From Alphaproteobacteria bacterium (lineage in GTDB: Bacteria; Pseudomonadota; Alphaproteobacteria; Rs-D84), in NCBI GenBank assembly GCA_017642585.1, contig JAGCOR010000021.1:4771-68770 (forward strand): a stretch of DNA of 64,000 nt, read 5' to 3'. Under the pieces are notes generated by a model. That model was not told the DNA's origin. It was given only the letters and a program-made list of their open reading frames with translations, and searched no databases. The position numbers and the translations under genes were made by a program. Shown here in pieces: positions 36,735 through 38,794 of this stretch. Within the stretch, counting starts at the first letter, position 1; each line of letters begins with the position of its first letter.

Positions 36735-36893
36735 GGAGCGCACGGATTGTAATTCCCAACACTGCGTATCGGGCCCCTTTCACTTCGCTTCGCTACGTCC
36801 CGAACCAAACAACTGCGTTGTGTGGCCTAATACCGAAAACGCCCCATACAAAAATAAAAAAATACCCGCAAGGGGTGTTTTTTATTTTTGGTT
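36735..36893 (+). repeat. about 160-bp direct repeat, copy 1 (begins with a tRNA-Gln 3' fragment)
   Basis: Near-identical to 37817-37976; I saw one substitution and one small indel. Starts with ggagcgcacggatt, the reverse complement of the tRNA-Gln T-arm/acceptor 3' strand. Confidence 0.85.
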
Positions 36894-36903
36894 GTGGTGT
36901 GTG
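36884..36903 (+). repeat. 20-nt direct repeat atttttggttgtggtgtgtg (copy 2)
   Basis: Identical to 35719-35738; overlaps the left inverted repeat of the EEP cassette. Confidence 0.8.
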
Positions 36904-37803
36904 GGCAAAACGCGAGTTGAGACAATGCTTTCATCTTTGTATACCAATTTCAAAATCAAGAACAAGCGGGAAATGGTCTGATATATCTGTTTTTATGACT
37001 TTAAAATCTTTGACTCTTATATCATCTGTAACAAAAATATAATCAACAACCATATCTTTTTCCGGTCTGGTTGTTCTTAATTTGTATTGTACAGACAAAT
37101 TTGTTACATGATTTTCTATGATTTTAATACTCGGACTTTCTGGTAACAGATTAAAATCACCTACAACAATAGTTGGTATTTTATCTTTTAATAATTCTGA
37201 TATTATAAATTCTGATTGTGCGATGGTTCTTTCATCACCCATACGAGTAGCGTTCCATATACCATGAACATTTATTATTTTTAGTTTTTTATCATTTGGT
37301 AAATTTATGATTGCCGATAATATACTACGAGCCCAATCTTTTTCTTTGAAATGTGTCGCATCATATTCTGTTTTATAGTTGTTGTAATAGAATTTATTTT
37401 TTGCCGAACAAATTTTATATTTTGACAACATTTGTGTTCCTTGTTCAGCCTTGCCGCCAAAATTTTCAACACACATACCATTACTTGTTACACATTTAGC
37501 AATATATATTGGTGCAAAAAAGGAATAGGGCAGGCTTTTAGAAAAATAATTTAATATATCTCTGCCACTTCTAAATCTTTGGAAAACGGTTTTTTCGTGT
37601 GGCATCATACTTTCCTGTAATGCGATAAAATCGGGTGCCAGATTATTTAATAAATCTATTACTTCTGGTGTGTTATCTTTTTTTATTGATATATTAAAAC
37701 TTACCAATCGCATTTTTATTATCCTTTGTTGTATGGATTTTGGCATATTGATGTATTTTAGCAAGTGTTTTATTACTTTTACATTTCGCCCACACACCAC
37801 AAC
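36891..37803. mobile_element. 913-bp cassette bounded by 16-bp perfect inverted repeats, carrying an EEP-family gene
   Basis: gttgtggtgtgtgggc at 36891-36906 and its reverse complement at 37788-37803. It interrupts the tandem tRNA-fragment repeats. No transposase and no target-site duplication seen. Confidence 0.4.
36931..37713 (-). CDS. endonuclease/exonuclease/phosphatase (EEP, DNase I-like) family protein
   Basis: MRLVSFNI, FIALQE, NVHG, VVGDFN and SDHFPL motifs. Start at the ATG at 37713 behind an AAGGAT RBS; the longer track ORF would start inside the inverted repeat. Confidence 0.75.
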   Translation of the reverse strand: MRLVSFNISIKKDNTPEVIDLLNNLAPDFIALQESMMPHEKTVFQRFRSGRDILNYFSKSLPYSFFAPIYIAKCVTSNGMCVENFGGKAEQGTQMLSKYKICSAKNKFYYNNYKTEYDATHFKEKDWARSILSAIINLPNDKKLKIINVHGIWNATRMGDERTIAQSEFIISELLKDKIPTIVVGDFNLLPESPSIKIIENHVTNLSVQYKLRTTRPEKDMVVDYIFVTDDIRVKDFKVIKTDISDHFPLVLDFEIGIQR

Positions 37804-37816
37804 GATATTGAATAAT

Positions 37817-37976
37817 GGAGCGCACGGATTGTAATTCCCAACACTGCGTGTCGGGCCCCTTTCACTTCGCTGGCGCTACGTCCCGAACCAAACAACTGCG
37901 TTGTGTGGCCTAATACCGAAAACGCCCCATACAAAAATAAAAAAATACCCGCAAGGGGTGTTTTTTATTTTTGGTT
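37817..37976 (+). repeat. about 160-bp direct repeat, copy 2, abutting the intact tRNA-Gln
   Basis: Same as 36735-36893. Its last 5 nt are the encoded ACCA-end of the tRNA. Confidence 0.85.
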
Positions 37977-38045
37977 GGAGCGCACGGATTCGAACCATGA
38001 TAAAGAGAACCAAAATCTCTTGTCCTACCATTAGACGACGCTCCA
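37972..38045 (-). tRNA. tRNA-Gln (UUG), CCA encoded
   Basis: Minus strand reads TGGAGCGTCGTCTAATGGTAGGACAAGAGATTTTGGTTCTCTTTATCATGGTTCGAATCCGTGCGCTCCAACCA. Cloverleaf with a U1-A72 pair; anticodon loop TTTTGGT. Confidence 0.9.
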
Positions 38046-38127
38046 AAGATATGCCAATTATATATTTGTTTTGAATTTTTTCAATAAAAAAATTCAAGAT
38101 GCGATTCTGATATTTATAAACATAGGT

Positions 38128-38691
38128 TTAATAACCGCGTTGTTTTAATATGTAAACCGTTTGAAATCCAAACATACGACATATTGCCGCAAGTTTTGGG
38201 CTGTGCATGAGCGATGGAAGAGCAAAATCTGAGATTAAATCCATCCGATATGCCAGATCCATAGGGTGTGTGGTTGGATTTGGTAATTTATCCAGATGAT
38301 ATATCATGGAATCAACATATAAATGAAAATTTCTTTCGGCATCGCTTAATGGTTGTTTGGTTTTTACTTTTTCACAAACATTTGTTTCTACCAATTGTTT
38401 ATGCAATCCTTCAAAACACAAATCTGAATACCCTTTTGCTTTCAAAATACAGGTTGTGACAATTGGACATGTTTTACATTGTATGCCACCAACATTATAA
38501 CAATTAGGTTCTAAGTTTATATCAAGAAGTTCAAAACCATCGTCAAAACAAGATTTAGGCGAGGTAATTATGGAACCATCAAATGGGCTGGTGGTTTGTG
38601 CACCAACAGGAATACCGCCAATGTACACAGGGGATACAGATTTTTCTGCTGTGGGTTGTTCAAAAAGGTCCAATTGTTTTCCGTTTGCCAT
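38128..38691 (-). CDS. hypothetical protein with N-terminal QLDLF (beta-clamp-binding-like) motif and Cys cluster
   Basis: Begins MANGKQLDLFEQP; contains CKTCPIVTTC...C...C; 187 aa. Confidence 0.45.
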   Translation of the reverse strand: MANGKQLDLFEQPTAEKSVSPVYIGGIPVGAQTTSPFDGSIITSPKSCFDDGFELLDINLEPNCYNVGGIQCKTCPIVTTCILKAKGYSDLCFEGLHKQLVETNVCEKVKTKQPLSDAERNFHLYVDSMIYHLDKLPNPTTHPMDLAYRMDLISDFALPSLMHSPKLAAICRMFGFQTVYILKQRGY

Positions 38692-38794
38692 AATATATCC
38701 TTGTTATAGTATAATGGTATATTTACACAAAAAGTTGTAATGTCAATATTTTTCTGGGTATCTATAATTTGGAAAGTTTTTTCCGAAATAGGTC

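What the first reader, a model, noticed from the sequence alone, without database searches (positions are those of the whole stretch)
36891..37803. EEP (DNase I-like) gene enclosed by perfect 16-bp inverted repeats: a minimal cassette inserted between the att-like repeats
Seen: gttgtggtgtgtgggc (36891-36906) and its exact reverse complement (37788-37803) bound 913 bp. The match extends to 20 bp with one mismatch. The enclosed DNA holds only one gene, with intact EEP catalytic motifs (SFNI, ALQE, GDFN, SDHFPL). The insertion point is exactly where the 160-bp repeat would otherwise join the tRNA core: tttttggtt followed by gtgg, versus tttttggtt followed by ggagcgc. I see no flanking target-site duplication and no transposase. 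Established: the EEP fold supplies the endonuclease of non-LTR retroelements, CdtB-type genotoxins, sphingomyelinases and inositol 5-phosphatases. Inference: one possibility is a cargo effector gene carried on a non-autonomous, TIR-bounded element. A more speculative one is a mobile unit whose own EEP nuclease contributes to its mobility.
Basis: partly seen in the sequence, partly recalled or inferred. Interest (0 to 1): 0.62.

Follow-up and report, generated by a model that had tools for sequence, protein, structure and literature searches.

The report
Single-gene cassette inserted at tRNA-Gln
The inverted repeats are real and mark one member of an undescribed family of small, recombinase-less gene cassettes that insert next to the tRNA-Gln gene of uncultured rumen Alphaproteobacteria; the EEP enzyme is one of many interchangeable cargo genes.

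Summary
In detail: a 16/16 (19/20) inverted repeat brackets one intact EEP gene next to tRNA-Gln(UUG).

The repeat is not local. The same 20-mer occurs in 27 metagenome contigs. There it brackets unrelated single genes: methyltransferases, an SDR, a peptidase S51 and unknowns. These pairs lie 200-390 nt downstream of the same tRNA-Gln gene.

Conspecific strains (about 97.5% identical flanks) have an empty site lacking exactly 1083 bp. Another carries a VanY-type peptidase cassette at the same junction (…CTCCAAC|CA…). In both filled states the cassette's distal end (…CCACAAC) joins the resident tRNA trailer.

The inserted unit is therefore a non-coding leader plus the repeat-bounded cargo. New units enter next to the tRNA and older ones decay; the neighbouring 266-aa ORF is a decayed cassette.

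EEP homologues at 83% identity or less lack the repeats and sit elsewhere, so the gene was captured. No integrase or transposase lies in the window or in the arrays examined, so the enzyme must act in trans and is unknown.

The EEP has a generic fold and is not CdtB/DNase I-like. "Cargo on a non-autonomous element" is partly right. A classical TIR transposon and EEP-driven mobility are not supported.

The parts
37972..38045 (-). tRNA-Gln(UUG) gene. Its 3' end ...GCGCTCCAAC|CA is the integration junction (attB-like).
   Evidence: ARAGORN; Rfam 58.7 bits. The same tRNA lies next to cassettes in at least 13 other loci.
36891..37973 (-). The 1083-bp unit present in this strain and absent from conspecific strains. 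It comprises leader, L-end, EEP gene and R-end. Because of the 161-bp repeats the indel can equally be drawn as 36734-37815.
   Evidence: L133 and L131 align to window ..36894 and 37816.. with a single copy of the 160-nt block.
37816..37971 (-). tRNA-proximal leader. It holds the trailer with a bidirectional terminator, about 100 nt (R), and a 15-nt copy of the tRNA 3' end (A, AATCCGTGCGCTCCA). R-A folds as a pseudo-tRNA closed by TGGGGCG/CGCTCCA.
37804..37815 (-). Truncated 'L-outer' box (TTATTCAATATC). Family consensus is ..CTTGATATTATCGTTCAATGTG.
37784..37803 (-).
37714..37783 (-). EEP upstream region. It is conserved with the cassette in L018, L019, L022, L108 and L011, and holds the presumed promoter and an AGGA ribosome-binding site.
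36931..37713 (-). Cargo: EEP-family (PF03372) protein, 260 aa, no signal peptide.
36889..36919 (+). On the minus strand it ends ...CCACAAC|CA, mimicking the tRNA end.
36734..36890 (-). Distal copy of the trailer-R-A block. It is followed by ACCA.
36695..36733 (-). Second trailer with terminator (hairpin 36702-36721), of the type that follows tRNA-Gln in other genomes.
36627..36677 (-). Decayed L-end of an older cassette: L-outer box plus only GTTGTGG of the 16-mer.
   Evidence: nhmmer 23.8 bits.
35808..36608 (+). Cargo of the older, decayed cassette: 266-aa ORF of unknown function.
35715..35790 (+). Decayed R-end of the older cassette (GTTGTGGTGTGTGatc, 13/16) with the R-inner promoter (TTGTCA..TGATATAAT).
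   Evidence: L127 has an intact R-end at the same place.

Best explanation
The EEP gene is the cargo of a small integrative gene cassette that encodes no recombinase. It belongs to a family found in a clade of uncultured rumen and gut Alphaproteobacteria.

A complete unit has four parts:
1. A non-coding leader. It holds a tRNA-type trailer with a terminator, remnants that contain the tRNA-Gln 3' end, sometimes a TTCGAAC-palindrome module, and an 'L-outer' box.
2. A 22-bp L-end repeat, TG-GTTGTGGTGTGTGGGC-GAAA.
3. One cargo gene with its own promoter, in either orientation.
4. The same repeat inverted (R-end, with an extra inner box GAAAYGCGAGTT).

Read in the tRNA direction, the R-end finishes ...CCACAAC, which mimics the tRNA-Gln end ...CTCCAAC.

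Shown: units sit at the junction between the tRNA-Gln 3' end and its trailer (CAAC|CA). The tRNA then carries the unit's trailer, and the R-end carries the resident trailer. The unit next to the tRNA is the best preserved, and more distal ones are decayed.

In this window the unit is the 1083 bp at 36891-37973. The neighbouring 266-aa ORF is an older, decayed cassette.

Inferred: integration is catalysed in trans by a sequence-specific recombinase encoded elsewhere in the genome or on a helper element. A tyrosine integrase that targets the tRNA 3' end is the most likely candidate. The 22-30-bp repeats are its recognition sequences. They also act as breakpoints at which cargo is swapped between leaders.

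The EEP protein is an uncharacterised cytoplasmic metal-dependent phosphodiesterase. It was captured from an ordinary alphaproteobacterial chromosomal gene and has no role in mobility.
For: **The repeat family**
- The exact 20-mer occurs in 27 JGI contigs, where fewer than one is expected by chance from my own estimate of 4^20 against the collection size (not a tool output). It occurs in no viral contig.
- Of 50 unique ends, 19 are L-type and 19 R-type, each with its own conserved flank.
- Convergent pairs enclose single genes of 457-1336 bp with unrelated functions.

**One locus**
- At least 13 of these loci, plus L019 and the window, have the same tRNA-Gln 200-390 nt upstream of the L-end. 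The MarR-RND operon lies on the other side of the tRNA.
- In contigs of 32-125 kb, all matches lie in that one stretch.

**Polymorphism within the species**
- Flanks are about 97-99% identical between these strains.
- L133 and L131 are empty and lack exactly the 1083 bp.
- L130 has a VanY/M15 cassette with a different leader. Its R-end is joined to the resident trailer of this species.
- L127 has a 402-aa cargo in place of the 266-aa one.

**The same cargo in different flanks**
- Homology ends at the outer edges of the repeats. The EEP cassette is 98.5% identical to L018 over window 36889-37803, 95.9% to L019, 89.5% to L022 and 87.9% to L108.
- The cupin cassette of L108 matches L124 at 90%.
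- Core flanks among these loci are only 73-86% identical.

**Decay and capture**
- Repeat decay increases with distance from the tRNA.
- All 60+ EEP homologues at 83% identity or less have no flanking repeat above shuffles and lie in other contexts.

**No local enzyme**
- No integrase or transposase appeared in the window ORFs scanned or in 32 array-side ORFs of five loci.
Against: - No recombinase has been identified, so the enzymatic step is inference.
- The shared core at the junction is short (CAACCA plus A-rich trailer), and the 22-mer has no internal dyad symmetry. This is unusual for a tyrosine or serine recombinase core site.
- For the EEP unit, the leader brought in is 98% identical to the resident block. 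RecA-dependent loop-out or Campbell integration through the 161-bp repeats explains the empty/filled pair equally well. The direction of that event cannot be read from two states.
- The same cargo is found with different leaders, so at least one more kind of recombination, at the L-end repeat, must be invoked.
- No excised circle, inversion or alternative junction was seen. Only assembled contigs were available, not reads.
Confidence: 0.6

Rival explanations
1. Classical non-autonomous TIR transposon (a mobile insertion cassette). The IR-to-IR segment is cut and pasted by a DDE transposase supplied in trans by a related insertion sequence.
For: - The repeats are perfect inverted ends with the conserved terminal dinucleotides 5'-TG...CA-3' and no internal dyad symmetry.
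- Homology between copies of the same cargo stops within 2 nt of the repeat ends.
- Cargo occurs in either orientation relative to the outer flanks.
- Mobile insertion cassettes are a documented kind of element (PMC5444012, PMC6199540).
Against: - None of the cassettes inspected has a target-site duplication.
- No copy lies outside the tRNA-Gln locus.
- The units gained in this species include 160-390 nt of leader outside the repeats.
- No autonomous element with these ends was found in 27 loci, the viral contigs or the plasmid collection.
Confidence: 0.12
2. No dedicated machinery. Cassettes are gained, lost and swapped by ordinary homologous recombination after DNA uptake. The crossover points would be the tRNA gene, the 160-bp blocks and the conserved 22-30-mers. 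The repeats would be conserved for another reason, such as transcriptional insulation or a protein-binding site.
For: - The empty/filled pair differs by exactly one repeat period, flanked by 161-bp direct repeats. That is the signature of RecA loop-out or Campbell integration.
- A ComEC competence protein is encoded in the window.
- Between genomes 15-25% diverged, the only long identical stretches are the tRNA and the repeats, so crossovers would concentrate there.
- R-ends carry outward terminators, and some carry inward promoters.
Against: - The VanY cassette (L130) shares no long homology with the resident locus at its tRNA-side junction beyond the tRNA itself. It is nevertheless joined precisely at CAAC|CA on both sides.
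- The R-end mimics the tRNA end and carries a tRNA-type trailer in all lineages. Homologous recombination alone does not predict this.
- The 16-mer is as conserved as the tRNA across genomes whose core DNA is 73-86% identical. Its two ends do not co-vary: 1 shared versus 10 unshared variant positions. This points to sequence-specific recognition.
Confidence: 0.2
3. The repeats act at the RNA level. The 5' and 3' copies would pair to close the mRNA in an acceptor-stem-like duplex with a 3' ACCA-like tail. This would be for stabilisation or for RNase P/III processing, and the repeats would merely travel with the genes.
For: - A transcript carrying both copies could form a 20-bp duplex.
- The R-end followed by CCA/A-rich trailer and a terminator resembles a tRNA 3' end.
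- The inter-cassette element folds into an 18-bp stem as a single strand, z = -4.8.
Against: - In many cassettes the conserved promoter lies inside the R-end, so transcripts would not contain that repeat.
- Cargo orientation varies relative to the two end types.
- Variant positions in the two ends are not compensatory, 1 of 11.
- The idea does not explain insertion at the tRNA junction.
- No RNA data were available.
Confidence: 0.05
4. The EEP nuclease itself mobilises the unit, in the manner of a homing or retroelement endonuclease.
For: EEP domains provide the endonuclease of non-LTR retroelements (general knowledge). There is a weak match to PF14529, below its cut-off.
Against: - The same ends bracket methyltransferases, an SDR, a peptidase S51, a VanY peptidase and unknown proteins.
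- The protein family is widespread as an ordinary chromosomal gene without repeats in Clostridia, Bacilli, CPR and DPANN.
- There is no reverse transcriptase.
Confidence: 0.02

Closest known systems
Integron gene cassettes and chromosomal cassette arrays (superintegrons, CALINs)
   Same: - Arrays of small, mostly single-gene units with diverse accessory functions.
- New units enter at one fixed end of the array.
- Each gene lies between inverted repeat arms of conserved inter-cassette elements that fold into a hairpin as single strands.
- The terminal triplets are AAC...GTT.
   Different: - There is no intI, attI or Pc. The entry point is a tRNA-Gln 3' end.
- The arms are a perfect, sequence-conserved 20-22-bp duplex without extrahelical bases.
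- Arm spacing is 150-390 nt rather than the 57-141 nt of attC.
- The non-coding element that travels with a cargo is the one upstream of it (the leader), not a downstream attC.
- Cargo genes have their own promoters.
- From my own knowledge, Alphaproteobacteria are reported to lack integrons.
Acinetobacter pdif (dif) modules (PMC13141974, PMC6449649)
   Same: - Modules are bounded by inversely oriented copies of one asymmetric site, alternating along the array.
- No recombinase is carried in cis.
- There is no target-site duplication.
- The same module appears in different contexts.
- Cargo consists of accessory genes.
   Different: - The site is not a 28-bp XerC-6-XerD site. It has no dyad symmetry and no similarity to dif.
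- The arrays are chromosomal, at a tRNA gene, not on Rep_3 plasmids.
- Insertion is polar at one junction.
tRNA-targeting integrative islands: tycheposon arrays (bioRxiv 10.1101/2020.12.28.424599) and integrase-less cis-mobilisable elements (CIMEs) accreted at att sites
   Same: - Integration is at the 3' end of a tRNA gene and regenerates the tRNA.
- Tandem accretion occurs, with partial tRNA copies left behind.
- Cargo-only units lack an integrase.
- The result is a flexible island, here between tRNA-Gln and tRNA-Glu.
   Different: - The units are tiny (0.7-1.7 kb, one gene).
- Each cargo is bracketed by a conserved 22-bp inverted repeat, which those elements do not have.
- No integrase-bearing parent element has been seen.
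Mobile insertion cassettes and MITE-flanked passenger genes (PMC5444012, PMC6199540)
   Same: A single passenger gene lies between terminal inverted repeats with TG...CA ends, and there is no transposase.
   Different: - There is no target-site duplication and no related insertion sequence.
- The elements occupy a single site instead of being dispersed.
- The mobile unit extends beyond the repeats.

Membership tests
EEP superfamily (Pfam PF03372) | Profile match above the gathering score, with the catalytic Asn/Glu/Asp/His residues present | tested here: met
   49.9 bits against a cut-off of 24.5. N7, E34, D186, N188, D246 and H247 are invariant. The model has pLDDT 96, and 153 PDB EEP matches reach E<=1e-3.
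CdtB / DNase I subfamily of EEP | Closest sequence or structure relatives are DNase I or CdtB, and the protein is secreted (signal peptide) | tested here: not met
   The top 50 Foldseek hits are uncharacterised bacterial EEPs (4ruw, 3g6s, 3teb), TDP2, CNOT6L/nocturnin and sphingomyelinases, with no DNase I or CdtB. The PDB sequence search found nothing. The N-terminus is the first beta-strand, so there is no signal peptide.
Integron cassette / attC | attC site: R'' RYYYAAC ... R' GTTRRRY, an imperfect stem with extrahelical bases, 57-141 bp | tested here: not met
   The arms are CCACAAC/GTTGTGG. The AAC/GTT triplets are present, but 2 of the 4 degenerate positions fail. The duplex is perfect over 20-22 bp, and the arms lie 150-390 nt apart. 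No attC covariance model was available.
Integron cassette / attC | intI integrase with attI next to the array | tested here: not met
   No integrase appeared among the window ORFs scanned or among 32 array-side ORFs. A tRNA-Gln gene occupies the entry position.
Integron cassette / attC | A cassette carries its own downstream recombination element into new arrays | tested here: not met
   Copies of the EEP cassette have different downstream trailers. In L130 and in the window, the upstream leader came in with the cargo and the resident trailer follows it.
pdif / Xer modules | 28-bp site made of XerC and XerD arms with partial dyad symmetry around a 6-bp spacer | tested here: not met
   The consensus TG-GTTGTGGTGTGTGGGC-GAAA(YGCGAGTT) has no dyad symmetry and no dif-like arms (inspection).
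pdif / Xer modules | Modules bounded by inversely oriented sites that alternate along the array | tested here: met
   Orientation alternates (+,-,+,-) in L098, L108, L109, L117 and the window.
Non-autonomous TIR transposon (MIC/MITE type) | Terminal inverted repeats | tested here: met
   16/16 and 19/20 here. The ends are conserved in 50 unique instances.
Non-autonomous TIR transposon (MIC/MITE type) | Target-site duplication flanking the ends | tested here: not met
   No direct repeat abuts the ends in the window, L018-L022, L099 or L130.
Non-autonomous TIR transposon (MIC/MITE type) | Copies dispersed at different genomic sites, and a related autonomous element with the same ends | tested here: not met
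   All informative copies are at tRNA-Gln. No transposase-bearing copy appeared in 27 loci, the viral contigs or the plasmids. Whole genomes could not be scanned.
tRNA-targeting site-specific integrative element | Insertion at the 3' end of a tRNA gene that leaves the tRNA intact, with a short identical core at both junctions | tested here: met
   The empty site is tRNA..CTCCAAC|CA-trailer. Filled sites have ..CTCCAAC|CA-new leader and ..CCACAAC|CA-resident trailer.
tRNA-targeting site-specific integrative element | Integrase encoded by the element | tested here: not met
   Units hold one cargo gene only. In this respect they resemble integrase-less CIMEs.
tRNA-targeting site-specific integrative element | Excision to a circle and re-integration catalysed by a recombinase | not testable with these tools
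   Only assembled contigs were available. No RNA or raw-read runs could be used. No circular contigs were found.

The most novel reading that the evidence does not exclude
This would be a previously undescribed cassette-capture platform, functionally parallel to integrons but evolved independently in Alphaproteobacteria.

- The 3' end of tRNA-Gln would play the role of attI.
- The circular cassette's two inverted 22-mers would anneal, perhaps as folded single-stranded DNA, to build the recombination site. Its stem mimics the tRNA acceptor end (…CAACCA).
- A still unknown trans-acting recombinase would insert units polarly next to the tRNA.
Probability: 0.25. Interest if true: 0.85.

Novelty: new variant of a known kind. 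Interest (0 to 1): 0.68.

Why it matters
If correct, this is a compact way by which uncultured rumen and gut Alphaproteobacteria trade single accessory genes between species. The cargo seen includes methyltransferases, acetyltransferase and phosphotransferase-type enzymes, a VanY-type peptidase and this EEP hydrolase. From my own knowledge, this class is reported to lack integrons.

The system has a very small, well-defined set of cis elements: a tRNA-Gln junction, a 22-bp repeat and a leader. That makes the missing recombinase findable by phylogenetic profiling and testable in E. coli. A site-specific system with such short sites and no cis-encoded enzyme could be of interest as a tool.

It also explains why metagenome assemblies of these organisms break at this locus. 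Finally, it warns against reading the EEP gene as a toxin or effector.

Tried and rejected
- **Rfam.** Neither the gathering threshold nor E<=10 matched the 160-nt R-A block, the leaders of seven related loci or the repeats. Only the tRNAs were found.
- **ARAGORN.** With intron, low-threshold and tmRNA options on the R-A block it gave only spurious calls.
- **Invertible segment.** Contigs of four runs show no strand-switch joints, and the EEP segment has the same roughly 10x depth as its flanks, so it is single-copy. Contigs cannot exclude rare variants.
- **RNA data.** No RNA run could be listed.
- **Plasmid or phage carrier.** There was no match in the plasmid collection and no 20-mer in the viral contigs.
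- **Free circles.** No locus under 6 kb has overlapping ends.
- **Defence-system link.** PADLOC gave nothing for the EEP or its neighbours beyond marginal P-loop/NTase hits.
- **A shared regulatory motif.** I first considered that the third copy, upstream of the 266-aa ORF, was a regulatory motif shared with the EEP gene because of its similar distance to the ATG. I rejected this when it proved to be the decayed R-end of a second cassette whose partner L-end remnant lies at 36627-36677.
- **A false lead.** The 266-aa protein next to the EEP gene in L011 is unrelated to the window's 266-aa ORF; the equal length is a coincidence.
- **PDB sequence search.** It gave no informative hit for the EEP.
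Full report
**1. The observation**

The window carries GTTGTGGTGTGTGGGC at 36891-36906 and its exact reverse complement at 37788-37803. The match extends to 20 nt with one mismatch. Chance does not explain it. With up to 3 mismatches the 16-mer is expected 0.53 times in shuffles of the window. The best inverted repeat between shuffled flanks scores 9-11, against 16 observed.

Between the arms lies one gene on the minus strand. The mechanical ORF starts at a GTG inside the repeat. The real start is the ATG at 37713, preceded by AGGA, and the gene ends at 36931 (260 aa).

tRNA-Gln(UUG) lies at 37972-38045 on the minus strand. A block of about 161 nt occurs twice, at 36734-36894 and 37816-37977, about 98% identical, with period 1083. 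Each block holds a copy of the last 15 nt of the tRNA (AATCCGTGCGCTCCA), about 100 nt of further sequence, and the tRNA's trailer with a bidirectional terminator.

**2. The repeat is not confined to this locus**

All contigs that encode the identical EEP protein have the same arrangement. Contigs encoding 97% and 89% identical EEP proteins (L018/L021, L019/L020, L022, and later L108) also have both repeats. Outside the repeats, however, their sequence is different. Homology to the window starts and stops within 2-25 nt of the outer edges of the repeats. For example, L018 is 98.5% identical over window 36889-37803. L011 (87%) has decayed repeats.

All other homologues were checked in 74 loci from GTDB genomes. 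They come from Alphaproteobacteria (55-83% identity) and from Bacilli, Clostridia, CPR and DPANN (24-55%). None has a flanking inverted repeat above the shuffle level. They sit in other contexts, for instance directly after secA or after a GNAT gene. The gene was therefore captured into the repeat-bounded form recently, within one sub-clade.

**3. The repeat brackets other genes**

An exact search for GTTGTGGTGTGTGGGCRAAA found 27 contigs in the JGI metagenome collection. By my own estimate from 4^20 against the collection size, fewer than one chance match is expected. The viral contigs held none.

Fifty unique instances fall into two end types:
- **L-ends** are preceded by a conserved box, ..CTTGATATTATCGTTCAATGTG.
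- **R-ends** are preceded by a terminator hairpin plus TTGAATTTTTG and followed by GAAAYGCGAGTT. In some, an inward promoter comes next.

Convergent pairs enclose single genes of 457-1336 bp. These include two SAM methyltransferases, a short-chain dehydrogenase, a peptidase S51, a small cupin-like protein and several unknowns. None is a recombinase. Cargo can face either end.

The window's right repeat is an L-end with a truncated outer box. Its left repeat is an R-end with the inner box AAAACGCGAGTTG.

**4. Everything happens at one locus**

In at least 13 of the 27 loci, in L019 and in the window, the same tRNA-Gln gene lies 200-390 nt upstream of the first L-end. The MarR-OEP-MFP-RND operon lies on the other side of the tRNA. 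In contigs of 32-125 kb, all matches lie in that one stretch. The island ends distally at a tRNA-Glu gene (window 24057-24131; L103 5306-5377).

Only one to three cassettes have intact ends, and these are always the ones nearest the tRNA. In the window, a profile of the ends found two more copies. One is a 13/16 R-end at 35726. The other is a truncated L-end at 36627-36677. Together they bracket the 266-aa ORF. Homologues of that ORF in other genomes keep differently decayed ends and the R-inner promoter. The 266-aa ORF is therefore an older cassette. The GNAT, PNP/UDP-phosphorylase, P-loop kinase and nucleotidyltransferase genes beyond it may be older still; that last point is inference.

**5. 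Empty and alternative sites within the same species**

I looked up contigs encoding a MarR 99% identical to the window's. They gave strains whose flanks are about 97-99% identical to the window.
- **L133 and L131** have a single copy of the 161-nt block between the distal terminator and the tRNA. They lack exactly 1083 bp.
- **L130** has a VanY/peptidase M15 gene between an L-end and an R-end at the same place. Its leader is different (another trailer, a tRNA-end-containing remnant and a TTCGAAC-palindrome module). Its R-end is joined to this species' resident trailer.
- **L127** has a 402-aa cargo with an intact R-end where the window has the decayed R-end of the 266-aa cassette.

The junctions, written in the tRNA direction, are as follows:

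| State | Junction |
|---|---|
| Empty | ..GCGCTCCAAC\|CAAAAAATAAAAAACACCCC |
| Window, tRNA side | ..GCGCTCCAAC\|CAAAAATAAAAAACACCCC |
| Window, EEP R-end | ..CACACCACAAC\|CAAAAATAAAAAACACCCC |
| L130, tRNA side | ..GCGCTCCAAC\|CAGAATAAACAAAAACGCCC |
| L130, R-end | ..CACACCTCAAC\|CAAAAATAAAAAACGCCCC |

The unit that enters is therefore leader + L-end + cargo + R-end. It enters between the tRNA's CAAC and CA. The R-end mimics the tRNA end. The same logic explains the order of leaders and trailers in the multi-cassette arrays L098 and L117.

**6. Mechanism**

Shown:
- Insertion is site-specific and polar at the tRNA-Gln 3' end.
- The unit includes the leader.
- Cassettes turn over within a species.
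- The same cargo occurs with different leaders and trailers, with breakpoints at the repeats.
- The EEP cassette is far more similar between contigs (96-98.5%) than core genes are among the genomes that carry such arrays (73-86%).

Inferred: a sequence-specific recombinase acts in trans. None is encoded in the window. The remaining genes are housekeeping: gyrA, tRNA synthetases, CTP synthase, PBPs, YidC, ComEC and others. None was found among 32 ORFs on the array side of five large loci either.

The 16-mer is as conserved as the tRNA, and its two copies do not co-vary (1 shared against 10 unshared variant positions). This favours protein recognition over a purely structural role.

The repeat has no internal dyad symmetry and ends in TG...CA. 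That looks transposase-like. Against a transposon stand the absence of target-site duplications, the single locus and the leader-inclusive unit.

For the EEP unit itself, the incoming leader equals the resident block. Homologous recombination through the 161-bp repeats could therefore equally have produced the empty/filled pair. The L130 state is what argues for a site-specific step.

**7. The cargo protein**

AlphaFold with a 40-sequence alignment gives a confident EEP fold (pLDDT 96). The best PDB matches are uncharacterised bacterial EEPs (4ruw, 3g6s, 3teb). After them come TDP2, CNOT6L/nocturnin and sphingomyelinases, at TM 0.55-0.77 and 13-20% identity.
- NCBIfam gives only sub-threshold hits to PRK05421-type EEP models and to the N-terminus of Xth.
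- The PDB sequence search found nothing.
- There is no signal peptide.
- PADLOC gives no defence-system link.

The function is that of an uncharacterised cytoplasmic metal-dependent phosphodiesterase. Calling it CdtB-like, an effector or a mobility nuclease is not supported.

**8. Comparison with known systems**

It works most like an integron array or a pdif-module array in topology, and like tRNA-targeting integrative islands or CIME accretion in its junctions. It fails defining features of each:
- It has no attC-type site and no intI.
- It has no XerC/D-type site.
- It has no target-site duplication and no dispersed copies.
- It has no integrase in the element.

I found no description of such tRNA-Gln-linked, repeat-bounded cassettes in the paper library. 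That is a limited search, not proof of absence. I file it as a new variant of the integrative gene-cassette kind, with a real chance that the recombination chemistry is new.

Noticed in passing
window 35715-36677: The 266-aa ORF of unknown function (no Pfam, NCBIfam or PADLOC hit) is a second, older cassette. It has a 13/16 R-end carrying a promoter and a truncated L-end. In strain L127 it is replaced by a 402-aa cargo with an intact R-end.
   Followed up: yes
window 38094-38776: The cysteine-rich 187-aa ORF between the tRNA-Gln promoter and marR is itself a presence/absence polymorphism. It is present in the window, L133 and L136. It is absent from L127-L132, L134 and L135, which are otherwise about 97% identical. 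No repeat-type ends were seen. The function is unknown.
   Followed up: partly
window 36749-36894 and 37831-37977 (minus strand): The repeated block ends in a 15-nt copy of the tRNA-Gln 3' end. It begins with TGGGGCG, which pairs with that end, giving a 113-nt pseudo-tRNA-like fold (z = -2.3). It has no Rfam match. Other genomes carry two other types of such tRNA-end-containing modules in the same position. These may be remnants of a T-loop-targeting integrase's att sites, or a functional part of the leader.
   Followed up: partly
L099, L103, L110, L113, L117, L123, L130 leaders; also L010, L011, L018: A module with three TTCGAAC boxes (GTTCGAAAGT..N35..ACTTTCGAAC..CATTCGAAC) recurs between tRNA-Gln and the L-end. 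It looks like a set of protein-binding (arm-type) sites. It is absent from the window's leader.
   Followed up: no
window 24057-38045: The 13.9 kb between tRNA-Glu and tRNA-Gln has lower G+C (0.30-0.36) and holds accessory genes: GT8 glycosyltransferase, NADAR, phosphodiesterase, aminopeptidase-like, PQ-loop, a 618-aa unknown, nucleotidyltransferase, P-loop kinase, PNP/UDP phosphorylase and GNAT. The homologous interval is only 4.4 kb in L103. This is a flexible genomic island, probably built from decayed cassettes.
   Followed up: partly
L117 4681-4940 and 7754-8012: A second array also has its tRNA-proximal leader module duplicated (260 bp, 95% identical) around cassettes. This parallels the window's 161-bp duplication.
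   Followed up: partly
one window ORF among those scanned (position not resolved): A ComEC-type competence protein (PF03772, E=3.8e-51) is encoded among the housekeeping genes. It is relevant to DNA uptake as a route of cassette acquisition.
   Followed up: no
L130 (both ends): Both ends of the VanY cassette share the same T-to-C change at position 12 of the 16-mer. This is the only shared variant among 11 variant positions in ten cassettes. It may be chance or concerted change of the two ends.
   Followed up: partly
L065 (Woesearchaeota MAG): A 40%-identical EEP homologue is flanked by a 14-nt inverted repeat TTTGATTTGTGGGC, above its shuffle maximum of 11. It shares TGTGGGC with the 16-mer. 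This is probably coincidence.
   Followed up: no
EEP family, loci L024-L097: This EEP subfamily (about 260 aa, no signal peptide) is widespread as a single-copy chromosomal gene in host-associated, small-genome lineages: gut Bacilli/Mollicutes-like MAGs, Clostridia, Saccharibacteria and other CPR, and Woesearchaeota. No member has been characterised.
   Followed up: partly
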